Shown here in pieces: positions 6,030-30,084 of a DNA stretch of 64,000 nt (its first letter is position 1; every line of letters starts with the position of its first letter). The notes beneath the pieces are model-generated. The model was given only the letters and a program-made list of their open reading frames with translations. It searched no databases and was not told where the DNA came from. This DNA is from Paraspadella gotoi (Eukaryota > Animalia > Chaetognatha), in contig JBJCIZ010000239.1 of assembly GCA_051294375.1 (NCBI GenBank), positions 2,555,476 to 2,619,475 of the forward strand. The letters are read 5' to 3'. Position numbers and translations under genes: made by a program.

Positions 6030-9000
6030 ATGGAGAGGCTGGAGCTTCCTCCTCCACCCGATGTCTCGAAGTCTCTTCGTTTCTTCCACTCTAACGCCAT
6101 GTTCTGTGACGTACGCCTCTGGCCATCTTCTACCGATGCCGCTGCAGCAGCAGCAGCGGAGTCTCCCAAGTATCTTCTTGTCCATCGCGTCGTCCTCGCC
6201 GCGTCCTCTTCTTATTTTGCCAACACATTCAAGAATATCGAGGAAAAACAGGATATTTTTCTTCCTTATTCAATTGATGGTAAATATCATCTTAAAAGTT
6301 ATGCCTATTTTGTTGGACGGTTTCTTGCAAAAACTTGGTATCATATGTAATCTCCTGTTTTTTTCGCATTAAGAAACAGAGACAAATGTTTTTTTTCCAA
6401 ATTACAAACGAACAAGAGGTAATTCAAATGTGTTACACCTTATCACATGTATTTTCGTTACATGACATGTCTTTTATTTCTTATTAGATTTAGGATTTCC
6501 TGAAGACGGCACTAGCAGTCTCTTAGATTTGAGGATTTTTTTCTGTCTGAACAAAGAGCAACAAACTATAGGCCAAATTATATGCATTATAACGTAGGTG
6601 GGACAGACTGACGGACAGACATACCGACCGAAGAGTGACGTATAGAGTTGCTTCGCGAGTACTCTCGGCACAACTAAAAAAAAACTACTCAACAGGTAAG
6701 GTTCTATCGTTTCTCCTCTCCTGGATGTACGGCCACCCTTTGGAAATTCAAAGGTCTAGCGACGCTCACAACATTTCATTTCTACAAAATTTGCTCGATG
6801 CCTCACAATGTCTAGGAATTGTTAATTTAGAGGCATATCTCGAGGGTGTGCTCGACCAATTTGGGGAAACCAAGCCGAAAGAGTTAGAGGACCAAGAGTG
6901 CATTTCCATAGTTGACGATGATCTTCAATTCACTGCCACTTCAGATTGCGAGAGCGACTCCGGAGGTAGAGGCTGCGATTCGGAAAACTCGATTGTCGAA
7001 ACTGAAACCAAAATCTGTAATAAAGATTCGCATACTCAACAACAAATCTGTAATGAAGATTCGCATACTCAACCACAAATCTGTAATGAAGATTCGCATA
7101 CTCAACCACAAATCTGTAATGAAGATTCGCATACTCAACTGCAATCGCAGATTGAAAACGTTAAAGTTGGCAAGAACGAGTTAAAATGCGAGAAGAAATA
7201 CCTTGCGAGAAATACCATTGATCCAGTTTTAGCGAAGCACATTGTCGACGACTCGTTTCAATGTTTAGTCTGCGAGTTTTCTTTGTCCAAAGTCAAAAGC
7301 GAACAAACATTTTTTTCTAATTGCGCCAAGCATCTCTACAAAGCTCACAAAATAACCTCCAAATTCTTTCATCATCCTTGTCCCGTGGAGGGCTGCAACT
7401 CAGGTGATGTTCTGCTTTACAAAGTTAAATAACCTTAAAGTGAATTCACTGTGACCGATTTTTAGTCAGATCTGCTTATCAGCAGATCCCGACTCTATAA
7501 TTCACTTTGTTGGTCCGTCGGTCCGCCCCCTAAAAATTGTCGGGCACACACTAAAATTTCAAAATAGTCTTTTTAAATTCTGATAAAAGATTCAGATTCC
7601 TCGTAAAAACTTGTTAAAAGAAAATATAACCCTTTTTCAAAGATTATGTCATTAAATAGGTTAAAATTACAAAAAACTATATTTTTAAGCTGGAAATTGA
7701 AAATCAGCGTCTTAAATATAGTTTTTTACATTTTTGACCAACATAATGAAAGAATTTTTAAAAACAAATTATACTTTCTTATATCAACTTTTTGTATGGA
7801 ATCTAAATCCGATCAGAAAATTAAAAAAATTGTATTTTAAAATTTTATCCTATTATATACTTATTACTATATATAAATATAGCTCACTGGCGCCCACTAA
7901 TGTATAAAATTAAAAAGTAAATTTACCAAAATATTTTTATTGGTGTTTATTTTCATGTTTTATATGCTAAATTTAAATTTTCTAAAATTTTATCATTTTA
8001 ACATCACTCTATTGATTATGCTTCTTTTTCTTTTTATATTAAATTTAAATGCAGGATGTATTAATTAATCAAATATTTAATCAGTTAATTAGACAATTAA
8101 TTAATTAATAATTAATCAATAATTAATTAATCAGTCAATCAATCAAGTCAATCATTATCGGCATTATTCTCATCGTCATTGCTTTTGTCGTGGTGAGTGA
8201 CGAAAAGACCTAAAAACAAACATTTGGGATTAATTAATTAATTAATTAACTTAAATTATTTAATTAATTATTTACGGATAATGATTGTAGGCAGATCCGA
8301 CATTGTTTGCTCAAACTTATTATATCCTTTCAGTGTTTTTCAGCCGTGTTGCTTGGACTGCTCACAATGCTCGCAAGCACAAGAGTAAGCGTAAAGATCC
8401 CATCGAACCCGTGAAAGTTTCCTGCGAAAAGTGTAACGCTGTCTTATTGAAAGTAAGTCTCAGGGAGCACAACTTAAGAAAGCACACTCAGGAAGGAAAG
8501 CATCCTTGCGAATTCTGCCTTAAGGTGTTTCCGAATGCCAATTATCTAAGCAGACATAAGAAAATATGTCACTTCCGAGAAAAAATATCTGAATTCAAAT
8601 GCGCTCATTGTAATTTTTGGGGTGCCAACAAAAATACCTTCGCTCATCATTGTTTTAGACGCCACGGAATCTTGATAAAAGAATTCAAGATTTTCGCGTG
8701 TCAAAGTTGTGATTACAAAAGCCCCGTGAAAAAAGTTGTGACTCTGCACGAAAGGACGGTTCATGTTCGGTCATTTGAGTTCAAGTGCGAGGTATGCGAG
8801 AAACGTTTTGCTACCAAAAGGCTGAGGAAGACTCACGTTGAAAGAGTTCACCAGGACTCTCAGGTTCGAGCATGCGTCAAGTGCGGACTCGTCTTTCGAT
8901 CCCACTGCGGAATGGAATATCATTTGTTGAAGATTCATCACATTGGGAAAAACGGGGCGAAAGCAGAAGACGACAAAGTCAGAATCAAAAAACCTTTCAA

Positions 9001-9187
9001 ATGCGCCTATTGCTCTCGCTCGTACTCCCTTCCGGGAAACGTCAAGAAACACTACAAGAACAAACATCCCGACAGACTTGTTCGATACGTGGACTTGCGT
9101 AAAGATTTAAAGGTGTCAAAGAATCGAGTCGGCGAATTTAATGATAATGTCGTACCCGAATGTCCCTACTCAAATGGAACCGGTTGA
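6030..9187 (+). CDS. BTB/POZ-C2H2 zinc finger protein, copy 1 (exons 6030-6279, 6696-7403, 8334-9187)
   Basis: BTB motif FCDVRL...VHRVVLAASSSYF, joined through GT-AG sites in consistent phase to SFLLSWMYG, then about 8 C2H2 fingers. Confidence 0.88.
6595..6684 (-). mobile_element. 5' end of a second HINE-like family in BTB-ZF intron 1 (paralogous copy about 10430-10530)
   Basis: Minus strand: T-run, AGTTG...GCAACTCTATA, then a GGTC/GTCY microsatellite. Present in both gene copies. Confidence 0.55.
7011..7140 (+). repeat. 30-bp coding tandem repeat (ICNEDSHTQP/Q), 4 units; 3 units in copy 2 (about 10855-10950)
   Basis: aaatctgtaatgaagattcgcatactcaac repeated in frame. Confidence 0.9.
7459..8321 (+). 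mobile_element. HINE-like insertion in intron 2 of BTB-ZF copy 1
   Basis: Both termini match the family. The paralogous intron in copy 2 (11424-11495) is the empty site ccgattttt|gtatcctttcag, with insertion in the T-run and no TSD. Confidence 0.9.
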
Positions 9188-9894
9188 CTAAATTTTTTTG
9201 AAATCTCTACCAAGTATTTTCAGAGTTTGCAAAGCTTGATATACAAATTTATTTGAATTATTTCTAGAATTTGTAGGTACCTACACCGAATTATGAATTG
9301 AATTTTAGATTCTTACCTCGAGTATGACCATTGTCAAGCGGTAAGAATATTATGAAATCGGGCGCAACAGCGAAATAAAACGCTTATCATAAATTTTTAC
9401 TTCGTGAAGATGGGAAGATGATCGGGTATGTTTAATAATAACCAATAGCATTTTGTCGACAAAGGAACATTATCTCGAAATATATTTTTGTTTACTTATC
9501 ACTTAGGTAAGGAACAAAATATCATCTTACCTTCTCTCGTAGCTAATGTGGAGAAAAGTAATGATGCCATCATGGCGGAGAACGGTGGCATCTTCATCAG
9601 TTTAACGGGACAAGAAGCCGTCAGCGATGTGTTGACCCTCAAAACATGATGATTTTGATAAATTTCATGAAATATAGTATTGTTTTAATTATTGTGTAGT
9701 TTTATCCGACTTCATGTTTGCTGAAACCTTTGGTCTGTTTCATTAGGTTTTACATTTTCATATGGAGCTTATTCAGCTCAATCGTCGTTCATACTTTATC
9801 CATTCTTTTTTGAATTTTCTAATAATTAATATATTTTATTTATTTATAAGTACAATCCGTTATTTTTATTACTTACCAAAAGTGAAGGACTGTT

Positions 9895-12328
9895 ATGGAG
9901 AGGCTGGAGCTTCCTCCTCCACCCGATGTCTCGAAGTCTCTTCGTTTCTTCCACTCTAACGCCATGTTCTGTGACGTACGCCTCTGGCCGTCTTCTATCG
10001 ACGCCGCTGCAGCATCAGCAGCGGAGTCTCCCAAGTATCTTCTTGTCCATCGCGTCATCCTCGCCGCATCCTCTTCTTATTTTGCCAACACATTCAAGAA
10101 TATCGAGGAAAAACAAGATATTTTTCTTCCTTGTTCAATTGATGGTAAATATTATCTTAAAAGTCATGCCTCTTTTGTTGGACGGTTTCTTGCATAAACT
10201 GAGTATCATATGTAATCTCCTTTTTTTTTGTAATAAGAAGCGAAGAGACAAATGTTTTTTTCTAAATTACAAACAAACAAGAATGGTAATTCAAATGTGT
10301 TTCGCCTTATCACGTGTATCTTCGTTACATGACATGTCTTTTATTTCTTATTAGTTTTAGGATTTGAGGATTTTTACTATCTGAACAAAAGAGCAACGAA
10401 CTATAGGCAAATTATATGCATTATAACGTAGGTGGGACAGAACGATGGACAGACATACCGACCGACAGACCGACCAAAGACTGACTTATAGAGTTGCTCC
10501 GCGAGTACTCGCGGCTCAACTAAAAAAAAACTACTCAACAGGTAAGGTTCTATCGTTTCTCCTCTCCTGGATGTACGGCCACCCTTTGGAAATTCAAAGG
10601 TCTAGCGACGCTCACAACATTTCATTTCTACAAAATTTGCTCGATGCCTCGCAATGTCTAGGAATTGTTAATTTAGAGGCATATCTCGAGGGTGTGCTCA
10701 AATTTGGGGAAACCAAGCCGAAAGAGTTAGAGGACCAAAAGTGTATTTCCATAGTTGACGATGATCTTCAATTTGCTGCCACTTCGGATTGCGAGTGTGA
10801 CTCCGGAGCTATAGGCTGCGACGCGGAAAACTCGATTGTCGAAACTGAAACTGAAATCTGTAATGAAGATTCACATACTCAACCACAAATTTGTAATGAA
10901 GACTCGCATACTCAACCACAAATCTGTAATGAAGATTCGCATACTCAACCGCAATCGCAGATTGAAAATGTTAAAGTTGGCAAGAACAAGTTAGAAAAAG
11001 TTTTCCAAGACTCGACCCAATTCCTCGTCCATGTTGAAAAAGAATGCGAAAAGACCGAAATCCCTGCAAAAAGACAGAAGTATAAAAAAGGATTAGATTA
11101 TGACCACAAACACGCTCCAGTAGTATGCGAGAAGTGTGGAAAGGTTGTCAAACGAGAAGCCCTAGAAATACACAACAAATATTTTCACTCGAATTATCCG
11201 CCAGATCTTTTGAAGAAATACCTTGCGAGAAATACCGTTGATCCAGTTTTAGCGAAGCACATTGTCGACGACACGTTTCAATGTTTAGTCTGCGAGTTTT
11301 CTTTGTCCAAAGTCACCAACGAACAAACATTTTTTTCTAATTGCGCCAAGCATCTCTACAAAGCTCACAAAATATCCTCCAAATTTTTTCATCATCCTTG
11401 TCCCGTGGACGGCTGCAACTCAGGTGATGTTCTGCTTTACAAAGTTAAGTAACATTAAAGTGAATTCATCATAACCGATTTTTGTATCCTTTCAGTGTTT
11501 TTCAGCCGTTTTGCTTTGAATGCTCACTCGCGCAAGCACAAGAGTAAAGTTCCCATCGAACTCCTGAAAGTTGCCTGCGAAAAGTGTAACGCCGTCTTAT
11601 CGAAAACTAGTCTCAAGACTCACAACTTAATAAAGCACACTCAGCAAGGAAAGCATCCTTGCGAAATCTGCCATAAGGTGTTTCCAAACGCCAAATATCT
11701 AAGTGCACATAAAAAAATATGTCGCCGAAAAAAAAGATCTGAATTCAAATGTGCTCATTGTAATTTTTGGGGTGTCAACAAAAAGACCTTTGCTCATCAT
11801 TGTTTTCGACGCCACGGAATCTTGATAGAAGAATTCAAGATTTTTGCGTGTCAAAGCTGTGATTACAAAAGCCCCTTGAAAAAAATTGTGACTATGCACG
11901 AAAGGACGGTTCATGTTCGGTCGTTTGAGTTCAAGTGCGAGGTATGCGAGAAACGTTTTGCTACCAAAAGGCTGAGGAAGACTCACGTTGAGAGAGTTCA
12001 CCAGGACTCTCAGGTTCGAGCTTGCGTCAAGTGCGGACTTGTCTTTCGATCCCACGGCGGAATGGAATATCATTTGTTGAAAGTTCATCACATCGGGAAA
12101 AACGGGACAAAAGCAGACGACGACGAAGTCAGAATCAAAAAACCTTTCAAATGCGTCTATTGCTCTCACGTGTACTCCCTTCCGGGAAACGTCAAGAAAC
12201 ACTACAAGAACAAACATCCCGACAGACCCGTTCGATATGTGGACTTGCGTAAGGAATTAAAGGCTTCAAAGAATCGAGCCGGCGAATTTAATGACAATGT
12301 TCTTACTCAAATGGAACCGGTTGACTAA
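9895..12328 (+). CDS. BTB/POZ-C2H2 zinc finger protein, copy 2 (exons 9895-10144, 10541-11423, 11496-12328)
   Basis: Near-identical tandem paralog of 6030-9187 with one extra zinc finger (CEKCGKVVKREALEIHNKYFH). Confidence 0.88.
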
Positions 12329-16704: not shown

Positions 16705-17071
16705 TTGATTGTCGAAGCGATTAGATTAGATAGGCGCCTCGCCCTTTCAGCATTTTGCTTGAAAACTCATCTAACAAATGATTTCGTTTAAATGCAAGAA
16801 AAGAAACACTCTTGTTAAAACCACCTATAGCTGTATGTTTTTAACTTGCCTTATTTAATATTGTCATACGCTTTACCATTTAGGAATCGTAAGTAAGTTT
16901 TGATATTAGAATACGAACCCAAATTTTTTTTTGGACGAGTGGTGATGACTTACGCTGCTACTTTTTTTTTAAATATTGGCCTCTGTCGTCTGTATGAAAT
17001 TAAATAGTTACAAAATCTTTTTTTTTTACGATTGTCTGTTGGTCCCTAATTCCAGGTTTAATTTGATAAAA

Positions 17072-19063
17072 ATGAAGCGCAATAATTCCTTTCGATCCGA
17101 TTCTTACAACCCTCATAAACGGAGTAGGTCGGATAATTACAATTTTAATCCCTACCTAAACGCCTCATACGCTCAACTTCCGCCCTATTGCTTCCCCCCG
17201 GTTCCGCCCCAACTTTTTTACCCACCACCTCAAATTCCTACAACTTCTCTGTACCGGCATCCCCCGACGGTATGGTCTCAGAACTCGCACCCCGTAAGGC
17301 AGGTTCCACGCACCGAGCCGCTTCACAGACCCCGTCCGAAACAGAACCTTCCTCAGGATAGCAACGTAAAAAACCGTGAATCTGGCGAGGATTCCTATCC
17401 TCTCGTCACTAAATCTATCATGGAATATGTCCGCACAAATGGCCAATCGGAGCAAATTTTGCAAACTAAAATGAATCTACGGAGCAACATGGAACGTGCG
17501 TTAAAGGGATTATTCCCAAGTTGCGATCTTTTCTTGTTCGGTTCGAGCGCCAGCGGCTTCGGCAGTAAAACCTCTGACATGGATATGTGTTTGGTAACCA
17601 ACTTGGTTCAAGCTAAAGACGTTAAGGCACTTTACAAGATCAAAGCGGTTCTCTCGAATCAATTTAACCTAAAAAAACTTCAGGTCATAAACGCCAAGGT
17701 GCCAATTTTAAAGTTTGTCCATGCTTCGACTGAGATTCAGTGCGACCTTAACATCAACAATTCCGACGGGGTGAGAAACACTCACCTTTTGAAATACTTC
17801 ACCCGATCGGATCCCCGATTGGTTCCGCTGGTGTTGGCTATCAAGAGATGGGCGCGTCAGCATAAGATCAACGACGCTTCCCAAGGAACTTTTTCCTCTT
17901 ACGCTTTGACGCTGATGGCTATTCATTACCTCCAATGCGGCGTTCATCCTCCGGTCCTCCCTAATCTACTGGCGGAGAACGCGGAGATTTTTCATCCTCG
18001 GCGACGGCTTCAAAGTCTTTCGTTTAACGATCAAGTCTTTGGTAATTTTCGATCGACGAATCCCAAAACCGTCGGGGAGTTGTTCGTCGGTTTTCTCACC
18101 TACTTTTCGAGAGACTTCCCGTACCAGTATTCTGGGATTAGTCTACGGGAAGCCAGGGTCGTTCCCAAGCGAACGGCGAAAGAGTTTTCCAAATTGGTTT
18201 TCATCGAAGAACCCTACAATCTGGACAACGTGGCGAGAGCCGTTCAAAAACATAACGAGCCTTACATCAGAAGAGTCATCGAGTCATCTTGGAACTTGAT
18301 AACCAAGATGAAACAGTTCGAACCTATTCTTGGATTCAAAGTCAGTGGTTCCGAGAAGATAGTTTCTTTCAATAATTTTAATAAACCCGTAGTTGTACAA
18401 GCTAAGAAAGAGGAAAGAACGACGAGCCAGACAAAGAGCGAAGAGGAATCCTCGCCCACTCAGAAAGACCCAACCCCCGCTCCCCTAATGGCAAAGGATG
18501 AGAAAACTAGGAAAATCGAAGAACTGACCCCCAACCCCCTCTCAGAGAAAGATGTGGTGGTAATCGAAGATGAAACACCCGTTCCCCTCACGGGAAAGGA
18601 AGCGGGGAAAATTGATGACCACACCTCCAGCCCTCTATTAGTAAAAGAAGCGGGGATAATCGTAGATCAAACACCCATTCCCCTCATGGGGAAGGAACCG
18701 GGGAAAATTGATGACCACACCTCCAGCCCTCTCTTGGAGAAAGAAGTTATGATAATCGAAGACCCCGCGGAGAAAACCGAGGACGCCGCTTCTGGTTGCG
18801 GCGTTAGCGAACTTTACCAACTCAGCTTGAAGAGCTCCTTCAAGGTCTCGCTAGAAATCGTCGGTGAGAGCGGCCCAGCTCACGCGCGGGAATTCCGAGT
18901 GAAATGCACTGTGATTCTTCGAAAGGCCGCGATGGAAACTCTTCTCGTTTCGACGGGAGGTGGAACCACAAAGAAGATGGCCAGAAACGCCGCTGCAAAG
19001 AACATGATTAATATATTGAAAGAGAGAACGATGGGTCTGGATATAAAGGAGACCTTCCCCTGA
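17072..19063 (+). CDS. TENT2: GLD-2/TENT2-type cytoplasmic poly(A) polymerase with a C-terminal dsRNA-binding domain, intronless
   Basis: Nucleotidyltransferase motif LFGSSASGFGSKTSDMDMCL, AKVPILKF, CDLNINN, GVRNTHLL, PAP-associated IEEPYNLDNVARAV. C-terminal SELYQL...ESGPAHAREFRVKCTV...GTTKKMARNAAAKNM is a dsRBM signature. Confidence 0.85.
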   Translation: MKRNNSFRSDSYNPHKRSRSDNYNFNPYLNASYAQLPPYCFPPVPPQLFYPPPQIPTTSLYRHPPTVWSQNSHPVRQVPRTEPLHRPRPKQNLPQDSNVKNRESGEDSYPLVTKSIMEYVRTNGQSEQILQTKMNLRSNMERALKGLFPSCDLFLFGSSASGFGSKTSDMDMCLVTNLVQAKDVKALYKIKAVLSNQFNLKKLQVINAKVPILKFVHASTEIQCDLNINNSDGVRNTHLLKYFTRSDPRLVPLVLAIKRWARQHKINDASQGTFSSYALTLMAIHYLQCGVHPPVLPNLLAENAEIFHPRRRLQSLSFNDQVFGNFRSTNPKTVGELFVGFLTYFSRDFPYQYSGISLREARVVPKRTAKEFSKLVFIEEPYNLDNVARAVQKHNEPYIRRVIESSWNLITKMKQFEPILGFKVSGSEKIVSFNNFNKPVVVQAKKEERTTSQTKSEEESSPTQKDPTPAPLMAKDEKTRKIEELTPNPLSEKDVVVIEDETPVPLTGKEAGKIDDHTSSPLLVKEAGIIVDQTPIPLMGKEPGKIDDHTSSPLLEKEVMIIEDPAEKTEDAASGCGVSELYQLSLKSSFKVSLEIVGESGPAHAREFRVKCTVILRKAAMETLLVSTGGGTTKKMARNAAAKNMINILKERTMGLDIKETFP

Positions 19064-19701
19064 GAGTTTTTCAGGTGGAACTTAATGGTTAGATTTGTCA
19101 TCTTTGTAGCTTTTCAGTCGACGCCCATTTAATGTCAATCAAACAAGGAAGGGTAATTTAAAAGTGTTGCGATTAGCGAAAGTTGAATAGTTTTGTCTCT
19201 ATATTTTGAATAAATGCTGTCAAATTAGAATGAATGTTGCTGTCGTTTTCTTTGAACTTCATTTCATAGACTTAGTTATAATATTATTTTAGAAATTTGA
19301 GATGAAAAAATGTACATTTTTACGTTTGGTGTAAGGTCGATTCATAATTAAAATAAGTTCCTTTATTTTATATACTACATATTGATTATGTAATTTGTAA
19401 ATGAAACTCGGCGAAAATTAATTCTATGTAGAAAACAGATTTGCTTTTTTTTTTAAGAATGTTTACCAAAATTTTTGGCAAAAAAAAAAAAGAATGGGTT
19501 TCCGATTTTGAAAACTACGACCTGATCACCACCCCCCCAATTTTTTTTTTCAATATATAAATTAATAATTATGAATTAGTTTTAAATGATTGATTTTTTT
19601 ATTTTTTCTACGAAGTTAGGTACACAAGAAATATTTTGTCCGATTATTTTTTTTTCCAGGTACACGACTTATTAAAAGGGAAAAAAAAGAGAAATATTAC
19701 G

Positions 19702-21686
19702 ATGAGATCTTTGAAAGAGATGACATGGACCGAGCTCGTCGTTCTCGGTGGGTCACTCTCGGCCGCCACCTTCAGCCTTTACCTCCTCTACTTTGACAAC
19801 GACGAAGAACTTCTGCCCGAATCCTCGGGACTCACGATTACTTCTCGTCAAACCGTCATCGAAGTGAAAATCCCCAAAGATATGGCTGGTCACGTGATAG
19901 GGCCTCAAGGTACCGTCGTCAAGAGAATCCAAGCGGAGAGCGGCGCCCGAATTCACTTCAAGGACGAGGCCACCACCGAGACCCACCGCTTTCTCATGGT
20001 GCGGGGAAGCCAAGAGTCCGCTCAAAAGGCCGAAGTCCTCATCAAGCAAATAATCAACGACGTGCCCGAAATCCTCAAGATTGAATTGAAGGTGCCGCAA
20101 CACTTTCTCGGTCGACTCATCGGCAGAAACGGGGACAACATCCGGGCTTTGCAACGCTCGTCCAACGCCAAGGTCATCATCGAACGAACGTCCGACGAAA
20201 GAGATCCCAAAGCGCCTAAAAAAGTGACGATTACGGGGGCGGCGGAACACATCGAAGCCGCAAGGGGTTTGATCGAAGAACAGATGGAGAAAGAAGAGGC
20301 TTTCAGGTAGGAAATACGTTTTTTCGTCCGAATTCGATTCGCATGGTTAAAACTTCTTGCTCAACGATGCATTGCAGACAGAAGCAACGATTCGCGGCCG
20401 AGTCTCGAGGAAAGAGAGACAGGAACAAAACGAAAGCGACAACCGCAACGACGACGACTTCCGCCGCCGCGTCGAGCGGGAATCTCGACTACGAAGGCGA
20501 ATATCAAGACCCGCGGATCGAAATCCAAGGCAGCAACGGAAGTTGTTGTCCCTTCCATGCTCCCGACGCCGTTGACGGATCCGGCGACGCGGAGAAAGCG
20601 GAGAGCGTCCGAACTCCCGTCAAACTCCCCGCTCACCACGGCTTCTTCGACGTTTACGTCTCGGCTCTCGACTCGAGAGAAGCCAACAGACTTTGGATCC
20701 AACTTGGTCGCCAAACGGAAAAACTCAACGCGCTCAACGACGATTTGAGTCTCTTGTATAACTCTCCCGCCGGCGACGAATTCGCTCTCCGGGAGAACGT
20801 CCGGGAAGGCGACTTAGTGGCGGCGAAATTGAACGCTTATTCGGATGTCAAGTGGTTTAGGTATGAGAGAGACCAATTTTCAATAAATCAAAACAAAAAA
20901 AAAACTCTTATTACGCGAGAATATTTTTCTTTACGTCGAAGGCTGTAGGCTGTAATGGTTTTGTATGGTTTTGGATGGTAAAATCAACCGCCAAGTTTTT
21001 CTTTAAAATGTGTGGCAAGGTCTCGGTCGCGAGAGAGAGGGATATTTTGAGGTTTGGCATGATATAAATTCATTGATTCTTTGGCAGTCGTTGTCGGGGT
21101 TGTTGATTGACACCTTGAGTCATAATTTTAAGAGGTTTGTTTTTTGTTGTTGTTTTTTTTTTAATATTTGTCGAATTTTCTATCAAAACTTTGTCATACA
21201 TCGCTTTTGATTTAAATACGTTTTGCAATCCGGCGAGACTGCAACTTTTCTATTGACAATTAACACTGAATTTTCAGGGCCACCGTGAAAAAAGTTCTCA
21301 ACGAGCCGTACAAACTAGAAGTGTTCTACTTGGACTACGGCGACGTCGCCGTCGTCGAATCTTCCGACGCACGACATCTCAAGGACGAGTTCGCCTCTTG
21401 GCCCGCGCAAGCCGTCGAATGTCTCTTGGCCAACGTCCAATCCGTCTCTTTGAATCAAAACTCTGAAGGAGAAGCCGTTTGGAGCAACGATGCGCTCGAC
21501 TTTGTCGACGCCCGCACGTACAACGCCCAATGGGTTCTTCTCTATGCCAAAATTGTCGGCGGGAAGGTGATCGATGGTTGTAAACTGCCGCTGATAGAAT
21601 TAATCGATACGAACGGACCCGAAGATGTCAATGTGGCTCAGAGCCTCGTGGAAGCCGGCCATGCTCGCTTCGTCGAGACTGGATGA
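19702..21686 (+). CDS. TDRKH: Tudor and KH domain protein (PAPI); exons 19702-20306, 20378-20860, 21278-21686
   Basis: N-terminal TM segment, two KH domains (VIGPQG, LIGRNG), extended Tudor (WFRA...VFYLDYGD...PAQAVECLLA). Splice phases are consistent. Confidence 0.9.
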
Positions 21687-21934
21687 GCAGTGGTCTGACT
21701 CGCGTGTATCCTCTGATTATTTAAATGCACCTAGGTACCTCTGTAGATGTACGTAAGCTTCCATTCAATTACGTATTAGTCAGCTTGTTTACAAGCAATT
21801 GTGCATTCTTTGATCTTGTTTTCCTTTTTGATGAACGATTTTATGTCTAAACTCGAAACTTTGTTTAATATTAATATTTTTTCTTTAGTGGTATATATAT
21901 TTTAGGTCTCTTTTGTTAAAGATCAAACGCAAAC

Positions 21935-22928
21935 ATGTTGGCAAAGGGTTCGTCAACCGCTTCGCCCGGACCCAAGTCCCCCAATGACTCCACCGTCATC
22001 GACCTGGAAGGTTTCGACGACTTCGACGCTCTCGAATCCCCCAGCGATATCTCCGAATCGGGACCCGACTCTTTCCCCTCTCACGAAGCCAAGTTCACCT
22101 CTGTCACTGACGAGGACGAGGACGACGACGTGTCCGCTCACTTCCGCAAGCAAATGCAGGACAATATGACGGACATGTTGTGGAAGAGCGGAAAGGACCA
22201 CGCGCAAAAAGCTTTCAACATGTACGCCAAGATCGATATCCTGAGGCCTTATTTCGACGTGGAGCCTTCGCAAGTCAGAAATAGATTGCTGGCCAGTTTC
22301 GTGCCCGTGCTACCGACAGCCAAGAAGCAATCTTCGATCCCGGGCGACCTTTATGGACCGTGTATGATAATATTCACGTTGATCGCCATACTTTTGTTTC
22401 AGATGAAAGGTGAGTGATATCGACTTGAATAAGACCGGAGATCATTAATTGGTAATTGGTTTGTTTCTTGAATTCTTTGAAATTTCAGTCTCCTCTCACC
22501 GCGTAGAGGACGGGACGTTAATGGGCACGGCCTTCGGTCTTTGCTTCACCTACTGGTTCGGATGTTCCGCCGTCCTCTTCGCCATGTCCTACATGTTCAA
22601 TACGAAGCTTCGCCTCCTTCAAATCCTATCCCTCCTCGGCTACGCCATGTTTTCCTATTGCGTCGTCCTTTTCCTCTCTACCGTCGTCCACGCTTATCAC
22701 TCTCACCTTTTCTTCTACGCCGTCTGGATGATTTTCGGCGGACTGGCGGCGCTTCGCCTCGTCGCGGTCTTTTGGGCTCGGACGGGCGACCGGCGGAACA
22801 GAGTCGTCGTTGCCGCCGTCGCCGCCGCCTTTCACCTTCTCTTTCTCATGTATCTTCACTTCGCCTTTCACGAAGACGTCGTCGAGTTTGAGGAAGTGAT
22901 CGAAGAGTTGGCCGCTCGAACTGGATAA
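21935..22928 (+). CDS. YIPF3: Yip1 domain family protein 3 (exons 21935-22409, 22489-22928)
   Basis: YAKIDILRPYFDVEPSQVRNRL, DLYGP, EDGTLMGTAFGLCFTYW, multiple TM helices. Confidence 0.9.
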
Positions 22929-23093
22929 AACGATCAATTTTTCTCAGCTTTGTTTAAGTCTAAAACTTTGACCCTCTCAATATTCTAGTCCGTTTATCTC
23001 CACCGATTCTTTTCTGTTCCTGACAGGTTTGTTTTGTGAAATTAACAGTTTTAAAAAGCAAGTCAAAACTAAAAATATCAAAACAAAAACATT

Positions 23094-24778: not shown

Positions 24779-27700
24779 ATGGCTCTCAGGAAGAAAGCGC
24801 CGAATGAGCGGAAAAGACAAATTGCGAAATCTTCCTCCGAGTTTCCCGAAGATTCTTCTCCCGCAAGATCTGCCTTCTCGGTCGAGGAGACCGATGAGAC
24901 GGAGTCTAAAAAACCCAAATTAGTCCAGGTATCTTCTCTTCTTCAACAACGACGCGAGTCGTTAAAATTAATTCCATCTAGCATTCTAAATTATTACTAA
25001 CGCTTCGGCGAACTTGAAGTTCCTAAAATTTCGCCCTAACCTTTAATTATTTTAGTTATTTTTTTAATGTTTAATTATTTCTTAAATGGAGAGCACTTCG
25101 CGCGGAACAGGGGGATCGATGTTCGCAAGGGTATTTTTTTAAGGTAGTGAATACAAAATATAGTCGCTTTTTTGAATGGCGTCGACTTTTTCGCTCAGCA
25201 TGGATCGCATTGTGCCATCGCTGGCGAAGTCTTGACGTTTGGTACTGGCGACACGGGTCAGCTCGGACTCGGCGAAGTAATGGAGAGAAAGAAACCGGCG
25301 ATTGTCAAAATTCAAGGACAAGACTCTCATTCCTTCACTCAGGTTCGTTTATCAAAAACATTAGAATATTTCGCCAATGCTTTCATGAAATGAAATACGT
25401 ATCTGATATACAAGGTATGTTGCGGAGGCATGCACACCATAGCGCTTTCAAAGACGGGATCGGTATTCGCCTGGGGATGCAACGACGAGGGCAGCTTGGG
25501 CCGATTAGCCGACGATGGGTCGCCCTTGACGGAGGAAGAAGATTGTTCCGTTCCGGGAGAGGTTCGTATCGACTGGACCTGTACTTAAATAAAGGTGTCA
25601 AATATCAGCGACGAACTGGGACCACTGTCGCTGTGCAGGTCATCTTTCCCGACGGAACCTCGCCGATCGTTCAACTCTCCGCCGGAGACTCTCACTCGGC
25701 CGCCCTCACCGCCGACGGAAAAGTTTTCTTTTGGGGAGGATGGAGAGACAATTCGGGTAGGTTGAAAATCGGGCTCGTCTGACTCCTCACTTTTTTTCTA
25801 TTTTTTATTTATTTATTTTTTTTTTTTTTTCTATTCAAAAAAAAAGGTATCATGACGGACAAATACCCGGATCCGCAGCTGATTCCCCTTCCCCAACAGA
25901 TAGTCAAGATCGTCTCCGGATTTCATCATCTCCTCTTTCTCGCCGTCAACGGACAAGTTTACAGCATGGGGTGCGGAGAGAACGGCCAGCTGGGTCGATT
26001 GTCCGAGAGATTCGCCACGAGAAACGCTCGTCATTGGCGAGCCTCCCTCATGACGCCGGCCCTCGTCCCTTTGAAATACGCGACTAAAAAGGGTGACGAA
26101 GATGACAGTCGATGATTTCCGATCGAACTCTCTCGGCGGTCTTTATTTATAATGCAACGTGATTTTAATCATTGCAGGACTACGAAGAGGATACCCTGAT
26201 TCCTTGAATGAGAAGACGGTCGCTAATAACGTTTGGGCTGGAGGATTTACTTCAATGGTTCAGGTTGGTTTTTTATTTTTAAATTAAAGAAGAGACCTGC
26301 CAAACACAAAATTAAATATCGACAGTCGAGACGTCACAGTTGAATTTATTACCGTTTCAACGACCCTCTGGTCAAACGGCTTAATTCTATGTCATCCGTG
26401 TCATACAGTTACAATCGGGTCATGTTCTCGGCTTCGGATTAAATAGCTCGTCGCAATTGGCTACGAATGCCGGCGGAAAAGGCGAGGCCGCCTGCGAGTT
26501 TCAGCCCAAATTTCTTCACGCCATTTCCAAGTTGGAGGTGAATTTTATTAATTAAGACTCGGAAGATGACCTTTGCGGCGACGACAACAACCTCGACAAT
26601 GAAACTGACATTTGACCAAGGTCAAGTTCCTGACCTTAAATCAACCTTACCTTTACTATTGTTTAGCGTTTTCCCTTTTTTCTTACTTACCATTGTTTTG
26701 TCTTTTACCTTACCTCGTTTTTGAATGATTTCGATCATTACATGTCTTATCCTTGAACTGAAAACAACTCGATATTTTTCTCTACAAAAATCTACAAAGT
26801 CAGATCCCAAACCTTTGAAGAAACTGTCAAACGTCATCGTTTCTTTTACGTTAGGTCAGGGAAATTTCTTGCGGACATCATCACTCTCTGATACTCACGA
26901 GGACGGGCGACGTCTTCGCTTGCGGACTCAAGGAATACGGCGCCCTCGGTTTCGGCGGAACGATGGGCGTCGTCGTCGACCCGATGAAAGTCGATATAGA
27001 TGGCGCCGAGATCGAAGCCGTCTCTGCCGGGACTCATCTCTCTTTCGCCGTCACCCGCTCCGGTACGCCCCTGCTAGTTTTTGTTAGCGTCATTACTATA
27101 ATGACCGAAAATAGTAACGAATGAATAATCTAGGTTTAGGGCAGAAAAAATAGAAATAAAATGTTTCTTGAGGAATGTTGTACATCGCATTAATTTGCAT
27201 GTAGTTCTAGTTTTTAAGTCACTTGTCGGTCGGTCGGTCGGTCGGTGTGTCACGTCACGAAATATACACGTAATAAGGCAGTCACTGCGGCGCAACAATT
27301 TGAATTACCGTTCTTGTTTTTTTTTTAAAGAATATACAGAATATACAGTATACTGCTATATAGCTTCATTTTTTCTTTTTTTTGTAATATTTTTTTTTAA
27401 TAAAAGAGTTAAGTACTTAAACTGTGTTACGTAAGGGCTTATCTTTTGTTCCAACACCTATTAATATACCCGCTATTGACCTCATTGTCGGCGTTGAGAC
27501 AGGAGCGAAGCTTCTCGATCACGGCCCGAAGCGGCGGCAACCCTTTGGGCAGCGGCGGCGCAGATCCTCACTGCCAAGAGGGCTCCGCCCCCGCAAAATG
27601 TCGGTAAGAGTGAATGCAAGGCCATTGCTTCACTCAAGCGTAATCAGGCAATCATGGTTCATCCGCGGACAAGGGAAGAGCTGCGGTAGTTATGGACGCC

Positions 27701-30084
27701 CATGACTACAAAAACAAAGTTCGCAAAATGATGGCAGATAGGAAAACATACCATCTCCTATCTAAGGATCCAACTCTCGCTTACAGAGCTCGGATTCAGA
27801 CGGTAACGAAAAGAATACGTGAGTACTGTCCCCCGTCAGTATTTCACAGAGTCAACCCTGACTCAACGCAGCCTCCTTTGTTCTTCGGTCAACCGAAGGT
27901 ACAAAAGCCCGATCTACCGTTACGCCCGTATGTATCGGCCCGCAATTCCATTTTTAATGGAATGACGAAGGAGTTGGGGCGCATCCTCACTCCACTCGTT
28001 GGTAACCAACACCACCTCCGGAACTCTGTCGATCTGACGGAAAAGTTGCAACACATAAAAGTGCCCGATAGTCATTGCTTGGTCTCGTGTGATTTAACCA
28101 GCATGTTTACAAATATTCCTCAGGAATTGGCGTTAAAATCAGCAGAGCGCCGCCTGAAGGAAGACCGGACATTGCACGAGCGTACGCCAATCCAATTGAA
28201 TGACATCATGGCACTGTTGCGGCTCGACCTGGAACTGGCGTACTTCAGGTTCGATGGACAGTACTACGCCCAGCCTGGTGGCTTAGGATGGGCAAGTCGA
28301 CATCAAGTCCTCTGGCAGATTTCTATATGGAGGACTATGAGGTGGAAGCTTTGGCCTCTTTTCGATCATTGCATGGGGCAGAGTCTATCCTCTTCTGGTA
28401 TCGGAAAGCAGACGATACCATTCTGGCCGTGCGCAAAGACCTCATTGAGGACTTACTGAACCATTTGAACAGCATTCATGTGAGCATCAAGTGGACATGT
28501 GAAAAAGAGGTGAATGGGTCGATTCCAATGCTCGATGTGCTTATAAAGCGCAAAGAGGGCGGCTCATTGGAATTCTCAGTATATCGCAAACCTACACACA
28601 CAGACCAATACATTCCCTTCGATTCTCATGCCCCTTGTCTCACAAGCTAGCCACGGTCAGATCCCTTACCAGAAGGGCTATATTGATTCCGTCGACCCCC
28701 GAGCTTCAGGCCGCCGAGCTTGAGCATGTCAAAAGAGCCTTGGCGATCAATGGTTACCCATTGTGGGCCTTCGAGAAGGCCAGGTACCGGCCGTATCTGG
28801 TTGAGGGCAGTGGCCACCAAGGGGCTGCCCAAGTAACCGCTAGCGTTGATTCTACCTCCAACCCCCAGGAGGAAGAAAGGGTTCTTGCTGCTGAAGAGCC
28901 TACCGCGCCCACCACAGCGCAACTGGAGATAAGCAGAAGCGCCCTAAGAACGTGGGTCACTTGTCCCTCCCCTACCACCAGGGGATCACTGAGTCATTGG
29001 TGCGGGTGCTGGCAAAGCAGGGGATCTCCACCTCAGTGACGACCCACGGTTCTCTACGAGAGCAATTGGTGAAACCGAAAGATAAATCCCCAGACCGAAA
29101 ACATCAGGAGCCGTCTATTGGGCGGCCTGTGCAGGGGCGGGCAACCAAGCCTGTGCAGCAGCATACGTGGGCGAGACAGGCAAGTCTCTAACAGACCGCT
29201 TTCAGCAGCACACAAAACCTTATCGCGATGCGAGAGGACATTACCTATCTGCGGTAGCTGAACATACAGTAAATACTGGCCATCTATTTAGAGAGTCAGA
29301 CTGTCTCGTGCTGTCCATGACCCAAACTGGTTCTCAAGAGGTATTAGAGAGGCGATCTATATCAAAGCCCTCGAGCCCTCTTTGAATCGTGATGGAGGAC
29401 GATTCGATCTCCCTCCAAGCTATGATACGCTTATCAAAAGCGTGGTGGAGGCCCCGCCACCACCACGTCCGCACAATGACTCCCCGTTTCTACTCAACGA
29501 AACAAGGGGAGACCTTTGCGCAGGCAATGGGCAAACGATGCCTCTCCTTCAACTGCAGCAACTCACTCCCTCTCTCTGTGGAGTAAGCGCCCACCAAAAA
29601 GGCGGCTGCTGGAGGAAGGAGAGGAGTCCACAACTCATGCGTGCAAAAGCGGCAAGAACGGACAACCACCCATCTCGCCAGCAGACGAGAAGAGGGCAGT
29701 CGACAGGCGTACCAGGCCAGAGAGACATCAGGGTAGCCTTTGGACTCTTCCCGCAAGGAAGCCTACCCAGTCCATCACATACAGGCTCAATCGATATGAC
29801 CTCTCAGCCACTGACGCGCCAATGACTCGACCACATCGTCACTACCTCTCATTTGCTTCAACCAAAGGGGCCAGCTCATTTTGAGCTCTTTCTTAATTCT
29901 TAAATTTCACTTTCCACATTAATATCTTCTAAACTTAATTCTCTCTTTCCTTTCACATTTCAATTTCACTGTTTTTATACTCAATTATTTATTAAGTAGT
30001 TTAATGTTAAAAATATTTATTTCACTGTTAGTTTAAATCATTTATCTTTGTTGTACATTGCACAATGTATTGTTACTAAAGTTC

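What the first reader, a model, noticed from the sequence alone, without database searches (positions are those of the whole stretch)
17072..19063. GLD-2/TENT2 poly(A) polymerase fused to a C-terminal double-stranded RNA-binding domain
Seen: an intact catalytic core (GS-x7-DxD plus the third Asp in CDLNINN). The nucleotide-recognition loop IEEPYNLDNVARAV is GLD-2-like and lacks the His typical of TUTases. An acidic repeat linker follows, then a clear dsRBM at about 18800-19025 (GPAH loop, KKxAxxxAA helix), all in one uninterrupted ORF. Known: characterised GLD-2 enzymes have no RNA-binding domain and rely on partners such as GLD-3, RNP-8, CPEB or QKI. Inference: a self-targeting tailing enzyme for structured or duplex RNA (pre-miRNA, siRNA, transposon or viral dsRNA). 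I do not know of a description of this architecture.
Basis: partly seen in the sequence, partly recalled or inferred. Interest (0 to 1): 0.75.

Follow-up and report, generated by a model that had tools for sequence, protein, structure and literature searches.

The report
GLD-2 polymerase with borrowed Staufen domain
This animal gene joins a GLD-2-type RNA-tailing enzyme, which normally needs partner proteins to find its RNAs, to a double-stranded-RNA-binding domain likely borrowed from the mRNA-transport protein Staufen, so the enzyme would likely find folded RNAs by itself.

Summary
Confirmed. One 663-aa ORF (17072-19063, +) holds a GLD-2/TENT2 core with all three catalytic Asp and no TUTase His, a disordered repeat linker, and a C-terminal dsRBD (Pfam E 3.5e-10; predicted alpha-beta-beta-beta-alpha fold). 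Six unnamed relatives (54-69% identity) share the architecture and form one clade (100/100) on the GLD-2 side of the tree, so this is a conserved lineage trait, not a chance read-through. New here: the domain's closest solved relative is Staufen dsRBD3 (family profile; 4 of 4 relatives tested singly). The Staufen RNA-contact positions are kept (four basic sites 7 of 7, His 6 of 7). The fusion is rare: 0 of 124 other listed homologues, and 1 of 132 further representatives, a Plectus gene model with an unrelated, N-terminal DHX9-type dsRBD. Likely mechanism: a self-tethering adenylyltransferase for RNAs with duplex stems, most likely mRNA 3' UTRs; pre-miRNA hairpins are the main rival. Activity, binding, substrate and taxon are untested. 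No description turned up in six literature searches. A new variant of a known enzyme family.

The parts
17072..19063 (+). Whole ORF, 663 aa, no intron in the coding region
   Evidence: no joint listed inside it
17072..17392 (+). N-terminal Pro-rich low-complexity region (aa 1-107), predicted disordered, poorly conserved
   Evidence: pLDDT under 50 for aa 1-87; mean pairwise identity 24%
17393..18337 (+). GLD-2/TENT2 nucleotidyltransferase core (aa 108-422); Asp169, Asp171, Asp225 at 17576, 17582, 17744
   Evidence: Pfam; best structural match rat GLD-2 6lbk, Z 39.5, rmsd 2.2, 313 aligned; tree
18203..18244 (+). Nucleotide-recognition loop without the His of TUTases
   Evidence: meaning of the His from PMC4931116 passages
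18338..18787 (+). Acidic, disordered linker (aa 423-572) with degenerate 48/96-nt repeats at 18501-18762; 46-150 aa long across the family
18800..19030 (+). Staufen-dsRBD3-like double-stranded RNA-binding domain (aa 577-653); His604, Arg606, Lys634, Lys635, Arg638 at the RNA-contact positions; 8 extra residues between strands 2 and 3
19049..19060 (+). C-terminal E-[S/T]-F-P motif, kept in 7 of 7 family members, role unknown
   Evidence: predicted disordered
19209..19214 (+). AATAAA, candidate polyadenylation signal 146 nt after the stop; use not shown

Best explanation
The gene encodes a GLD-2-type nucleotidyltransferase joined by a flexible linker to a dsRBD that was likely captured from Staufen (dsRBD3); the dsRBD is predicted to grip duplex stems in RNA, most likely in mRNA 3' UTRs, and would hold the enzyme near the 3' end so that it likely adds A residues without a separate RNA-binding partner. 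Shown: the two domains in one frame, the catalytic residues, the His-less loop, the conservation of the fusion and of the RNA-contact positions. Inferred from the families: ATP preference, cytoplasmic action, duplex binding. Inferred more weakly: that the substrates are Staufen-type structured mRNAs in germ line or neurons, and that tethering raises tail length.
For: Fusion kept in 7 of 7 family members, with core 73% and dsRBD 51% mean identity against 16% for the linker: the dsRBD is conserved while the linker drifts. The human STAU1 dsRBD3 residues whose mutation cuts RNA affinity eightfold (H212, K214, K234, K235, K238; PMC6238398 passages) map through the alignment to H604, R606, K634, K635, R638. 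The four basic sites are K or R in 7 of 7 and the His is kept in 6 of 7. Family profile against PDB: fly Staufen dsRBD3 44.8 bits, against 21-26.6 for the single non-dsRBD3 domains listed (Xenopus dsRNA-binding protein A, TRBP, Loqs, STAU1 dsRBD4, 8igd). Staufen was the top dsRBD match for 4 of 4 relatives run singly. GLD-2 lacks an RNA-recognition domain and is recruited by partners (PMC7988573); human Gld2 alone only monoadenylates and prefers ATP; a His insertion switches it to UTP (PMC4931116). A linker of 46-150 aa fits tethering at a distance better than a fixed measuring geometry (inference).
Against: No activity, binding or substrate data exist. For the window's own dsRBD taken alone, TRBP (34.8 bits over several domains) and the Xenopus dsRBD (28.9) rank above fly Staufen dsRBD3 (24.9), so the Staufen origin rests on the relatives. 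No dsRBD tree was built. P0007 has lost the His loop and has Glu for the third Asp. A single dsRBD usually binds weakly and with little specificity (own knowledge). Origin from Staufen does not fix present substrates. Mammalian GLD-2 is active without an activator (PMC7470959), so the fusion need not be required for catalysis. No listed contig bridges 18632-18703 in this organism's runs (101 pieces not shown).
Confidence: 0.5

Rival explanations
1. Same tethering, but the substrates are small-RNA precursors: the dsRBD holds pre-miRNA or siRNA duplexes and the core monoadenylates their 3' overhang.
For: GLD-2 family members tail miRNAs and pre-miRNAs. C. elegans GLDR-2 adenylation is skewed to 3p arms, which suggests precursors as substrate (bioRxiv 2021.01.11.426275 passages). 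The second fusion (P0254) sits in a nematode clade apart from the Brugia GLD-2 row, possibly that paralogue (inference; no C. elegans GLDR-2 row in the tree). The window's own dsRBD alone scores best against TRBP.
Against: The family as a whole matches Staufen, not TRBP/Loqs. The linker is long and variable for a 60-70-nt substrate (inference). The piRNA-type KH-Tudor neighbour is one of about 21 unrelated co-oriented genes and gives no support.
Confidence: 0.25
2. The dsRBD and the E-[S/T]-F-P tail mainly serve localisation or protein docking (RNA granules, Staufen-type partners); substrate choice still comes from CPEB-like cofactors.
For: Invariant C-terminal motif in 7 of 7 and an 8-residue insert between strands 2 and 3 are conserved surfaces with no known role in RNA binding; P0007 keeps the domain but has lost the His loop.
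Against: The basic RNA-contact residues are kept in 7 of 7 and the domain's net charge is +4 to +7.
Confidence: 0.15
3. A defence enzyme that marks viral or transposon dsRNA with tails for decay or silencing.
For: dsRBD plus nucleotidyltransferase is a plausible sensor-marker layout (inference); nothing from the calls.
Against: The core is conserved at 73% across the family, it is GLD-2-type rather than TUT4/7-type, and it lies among housekeeping genes.
Confidence: 0.07
4. Artefact or dead appendage: mis-assembly, read-through into a neighbouring Staufen fragment, or a domain under no selection.
For: Contigs break at the linker repeat.
Against: Six clusters from Logan, JGI, ENA and 'merc' carry the same order of domains, five of them on record with contigs of 2.0-4.4 kb; the dsRBD is far more conserved than the linker.
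Confidence: 0.03

Closest known systems
GLD-2/TENT2/PAPD4 (rat 6lbk, C. elegans GLD-2 with GLD-3 or RNP-8, fly Gld2 and Wispy)
   Same: Core fold (Z 39.5, rmsd 2.2), catalytic Asp triad, His-less loop, tree position.
   Different: Known members have no RNA-binding domain and use partners. The listed mollusc, nemertean and flatworm homologues mostly end right after the core; this one continues into a linker and a dsRBD.
Staufen dsRBD3 (6htu, 6sdw, 1ekz)
   Same: Best match of the family's C-terminal domain; RNA-contact positions kept.
   Different: A single copy, not one of several tandem dsRBDs; 8 extra residues between strands 2 and 3; followed by an E-[S/T]-F-P end; attached to an enzyme.
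Plectus sambesii UniRef A0A914WKG8 (P0254), labelled only 'DRBM domain-containing protein'
   Same: GLD-2-type core plus one dsRBD.
   Different: dsRBD is N-terminal and matches RNA helicase A (DHX9); separate clade; its nearest relatives lack the domain; a gene model only, not verified.
TUT4/TUT7
   Same: Same superfamily; tailing enzymes with built-in RNA-binding modules.
   Different: They carry zinc knuckles, two NTase modules and the loop His; split from this clade at 100/100.
NF90/ILF3 (DZF domain plus dsRBDs)
   Same: Nucleotidyltransferase fold followed by dsRBDs (PMC3467086 abstract; Z 19.1).
   Different: NF90 has lost catalytic residues; this protein keeps them and is GLD-2-type.
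Animal Dus2
   Same: RNA-modifying enzyme that gained a C-terminal dsRBD on a flexible linker, used to bind its substrate (PMC9775027 section 3.4.2): the best functional analogy.
   Different: Unrelated catalytic domain; tRNA substrate.

Membership tests
GLD-2/TENT2 | Pol-beta-type palm plus PAP-associated domain with three catalytic Asp | tested here: met
GLD-2/TENT2 | Nucleotide-recognition loop without His | tested here: met
   PMC4931116
GLD-2/TENT2 | Groups with GLD-2 and apart from TUT4/7 in a tree | tested here: met
   71 of 260 core sequences, IQ-TREE: 100/100 split. Place within GLD-2 unresolved; no MTPAP, TUT1 or RDE-3 rows.
GLD-2/TENT2 | Adds A to RNA 3' ends | not testable with these tools
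   needs an assay
GLD-2/TENT2 | No RNA-binding domain of its own (typical of described members) | tested here: not met
   dsrm above cut-off; this is the point of difference, not a bar to descent from GLD-2
GLD-2/TENT2 | Is the organism's only GLD-2 (orthologue rather than extra paralogue) | not testable with these tools
   no genome held
TUT4/TUT7 | Loop His, second NTase module, CCHC knuckles | tested here: not met
RNA-binding dsRBD | alpha-beta-beta-beta-alpha fold | tested here: met
RNA-binding dsRBD | Region 2 His and basic residue, region 3 lysines | tested here: met
   window protein keeps all five; family 7 of 7 for basic sites, 6 of 7 for His
RNA-binding dsRBD | Binds duplex RNA | not testable with these tools
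   needs a binding assay
Staufen dsRBD3 descent | Closest solved dsRBD by sequence | tested here: met
   profile and 4 of 4 relatives; window domain alone ranks TRBP first; P0005 and P0006 not run singly
Staufen dsRBD3 descent | Nests within Staufen dsRBD3 in a dsRBD tree | not tested
NF90/DZF pseudo-nucleotidyltransferases | Loss of catalytic residues | tested here: not met
   Asp triad intact; PMC3467086 abstract
RDE-3/MUT-2 poly(UG) polymerase | Groups with nematode RDE-3; adds UG repeats | not tested

The most novel reading that the evidence does not exclude
A whole animal lineage has hard-wired Staufen's main RNA-reading domain onto GLD-2, making a one-chain cytoplasmic poly(A) polymerase that reads 3'-UTR structure instead of CPE-type sequence. 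The fusion would expose a hidden Staufen-to-GLD-2 link (localised mRNA to tail extension) that works in trans in other animals, and GLD-2 has recruited a dsRBD at least twice, from different donors.
Probability: 0.3. Interest if true: 0.8.

Novelty: new variant of a known kind. Interest (0 to 1): 0.6.

Why it matters
How GLD-2/TENT2 finds its RNAs is an open question named in a review of the field (PMC7988573 outlook); every described solution there uses a separate protein. A natural one-chain version with a Staufen-type domain can be expressed and tested directly, with and without the domain, to ask whether RNA structure alone can direct tailing and whether tethering turns a mono-adenylating core into a poly(A) polymerase. 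It also predicts a Staufen-GLD-2 link worth testing in flies, frogs or neurons, and offers a compact structure-guided tailing tool. The limit: it is a lineage-restricted domain gain in a known family, of a kind already seen in Dus2.

Tried and rejected
No whole genome is held, so the organism's own Staufen, CPEB and any second GLD-2 could not be checked. A search with the dsRBD region alone found nothing, not even the six known relatives, so it is uninformative. ESM Atlas gave only leads under 0.9. No RNA holder is listed on record. The first structure model (7 sequences) was poor in the central domain, mean pLDDT 45.6, and its Foldseek matches add little; the fold searches were filled by the core and did not test the dsRBD. 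No closer view of transcript ends or of reads across the linker was obtained. Taxon: not established. The tree leaves the clade unplaced (its sister, a spider row, has 92/58 and is not trusted; the FastTree run put it basal at 0.67), and 0 of 7 look-ups of neighbouring window proteins were in the collection. A marine, operon-bearing phylum such as chaetognaths is only my guess; the main text of PMC12460157 has no 'GLD', 'Staufen' or 'TENT2' (supplements not opened). An in-frame AATAAA at 18380 and a donor-like site at 18864 were set aside as likely chance: contigs run through both. GC3 of the dsRBD (0.58) is like that of the core (0.54), so no sign of recent capture. Earlier scan findings: none. 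Rows left out: P0179 dropped from the FastTree run (its best hit was the N-terminal module); 7 of 267 proteins gave no core of 230 aa or more; the careful tree used 71 hand-picked rows.

Full report
OBSERVATION. The window holds an uninterrupted 663-aa ORF at 17072-19063 on the + strand. Pfam finds the palm (aa 113-244), the PAP-associated domain (334-386) and a dsrm (578-649, E 3.5e-10, 40.7 bits, cut-off 23). The catalytic residues are Asp169, Asp171 and Asp225; the motif is GS-x10-DxD, not x7. AlphaFold2 with a 105-sequence alignment gives two confident domains, core 110-421 and an alpha-beta-beta-beta-alpha domain 577-653, joined by a disordered linker; mean pLDDT 73.1, pTM 0.61. The linker carries degenerate 48/96-nt repeats.

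WHAT THE ENZYME IS. The best structural match among 48,161 chains is rat GLD-2 (Z 39.5, rmsd 2.2 over 313 residues), then C. elegans GLD-2 (35.2), CutA (34.1) and TUT7 (33.5). In sequence, TUT7 tops the PDB list for the window protein only because its two modules add up (58.3 + 124.2 bits against 179.7 for GLD2). The nucleotide-recognition loop has GLD-2 spacing without His, whereas TUT4/7-like rows have H-N-L; inserting that His into human Gld2 switches it from ATP to UTP (PMC4931116, passages). In an IQ-TREE tree of 71 of the 260 core sequences held, the 7 fused proteins form a clade (100/100, stem 0.87) on the GLD-2 side of a 100/100 split from 12 TUT4/7-like rows; the place inside GLD-2 is unresolved, and MTPAP, TUT1 and RDE-3 were not in the tree.

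THE FUSION IS A CONSERVED, RARE TRAIT. Of 294 homologues of similar length, 120 were listed: the best 6 (P0002-P0007, 54-69% identity, all unnamed) carry PF00035 and the other 114 do not. Four more cluster members do as well. None of 10 longer homologues (flies, mosquitoes, Brugia, a fish) has it. A profile search of 1.84 billion representatives listed the best 150 of 807 hits at E 1e-30 or better: 2 are family members, 16 were already listed without dsrm, and 1 of the 132 new ones has a dsrm. Across the family, mean identity is 73% in the core, 51% in the dsRBD and 16% in the linker, whose length runs from 46 to 150 aa; all 7 end in E-[S/T]-F-P. Whether the six are different species or include paralogues is not known.

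ORIGIN OF THE dsRBD. With the family profile, the best dsRBD matches in the PDB are human STAU1 dsRBD3-4 (65.7 bits, best stretch the first domain) and fly Staufen dsRBD3 (44.8 and 41.1), against 34.5 or less for multi-domain Loqs, PKR and TRBP chains and 21-26.6 for other single domains. Staufen is the top dsRBD hit for P0002, P0003, P0004 and P0007 run singly; for P0002, fly dsRBD3 scores 40.7 against 16.6 for a single TRBP domain. Against this, the window's own domain taken alone ranks TRBP and a Xenopus dsRBD above fly Staufen. STAU1 H212, K214, K234, K235 and K238, whose mutation cuts affinity eightfold (PMC6238398, passages), align with H604, R606, K634, K635 and R638 (all five fit one numbering offset). 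The four basic sites are K or R in 7 of 7, the His in 6 of 7; P0007 lacks it and has Glu for the third Asp. Descent from Staufen dsRBD3 is therefore likely but was not tested by a tree.

A SECOND FUSION. P0254, a Plectus sambesii gene model, has a GLD-2-type core and an N-terminal dsrm (E 6e-6) that matches RNA helicase A. It lies in a separate nematode clade (100/99) whose Steinernema and Aphelenchoides members lack the domain. Different donor, different end and different clade point to an independent event, if the model is right.

EXPRESSION AND CONTEXT. Runs X1 and X2 (near-identical depths, probably one data set) show three GT..AG joints in the downstream genes that X6 does not show, so they behave as RNA although not on record as such. 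They cover 16880-18632 and 18703-19453/19549, with no joint listed inside the ORF; no listed contig bridges 18632-18703, within the linker repeat, and 101 pieces were not shown. DNA carry-over is not excluded, since 29 of 30 bins had depth. About 21 genes with Pfam hits lie on the + strand (54 of 105 + ORFs scanned) and 0 of 66 minus-strand ORFs of 90 aa or more has a hit; one spliced contig spans two neighbouring genes. This looks operon-like, but a contig across two genes does not show one transcript. The taxon was not established.

MECHANISM. Described GLD-2 proteins lack an RNA-recognition domain and are brought to RNA by GLD-3, RNP-8, CPEB/Orb and others (PMC7988573, passages; PMC7470959, passages). 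Here a dsRBD with intact contact residues hangs on a long flexible linker. The simplest reading is tethering: the domain binds a duplex stem and the core reaches the 3' end and adds A. I give tethering to duplex RNA of any kind about 0.8, split as structured mRNA 0.5 (Staufen origin, long variable linker), small-RNA precursors 0.25 (GLDR-2 precedent, bioRxiv 2021.01.11.426275 passages) and defence 0.07; localisation or protein docking gets 0.15 and artefact 0.03. Dus2 is the closest functional analogy (PMC9775027, abstract and section 3.4.2); NF90 has a similar layout but is a pseudo-enzyme (PMC3467086, abstract).

NOVELTY. Six searches of the held library for this architecture or a Staufen-GLD-2 link (listings and abstract openings only) showed no description. 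A review of specificity factors in cytoplasmic polyadenylation has no 'Staufen' or 'double-stranded' in its main text (PMC3736149, term search), and a flatworm survey names GLD-2 once without domains (PMC5594548, passages). The library omits most subscription papers and no supplements were read, where domain tables could hold it. Verdict: real, conserved and apparently undescribed; a new variant of a known enzyme family; interest 0.6.

Noticed in passing
window 8291-62186: About 21 genes with Pfam hits, all on the + strand and closely spaced; 0 of 66 minus-strand ORFs of 90 aa or more has a hit. A very long co-oriented, operon-like array.
   Followed up: partly
window 19690-22974: One spliced contig in X1/X2 spans the KH-Tudor gene and the Yip1-domain gene.
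   Followed up: no
P0254 / P0268: Plectus GLD-2-type gene model with an N-terminal RNA-helicase-A-like dsRBD: a likely independent fusion.
   Followed up: partly
P0136: Leptotrombidium GLD2-like protein with two tandem catalytic cores; P0008 (Paragonimus) has two palm stretches; P0185 pairs Helicase_C with two NTase stretches. May be gene-model errors.
   Followed up: no
P0007: Family member with Glu in place of the third catalytic Asp and a lost His loop in the dsRBD: possibly a weakened or diverged copy.
   Followed up: no
window 16880-17056: Donor-like GTAAG at 16889 and an acceptor-like site just before the ATG; the X1/X2 contig runs through unspliced and begins exactly at 16880.
   Followed up: partly
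window 6593-12328: Two tandem near-copies of a BTB/C2H2 zinc-finger gene.
   Followed up: no
window 27644-29822: Broken ORFs that look like retroelement remnants by recalled motifs; no Pfam hit at 1e-4.
   Followed up: no
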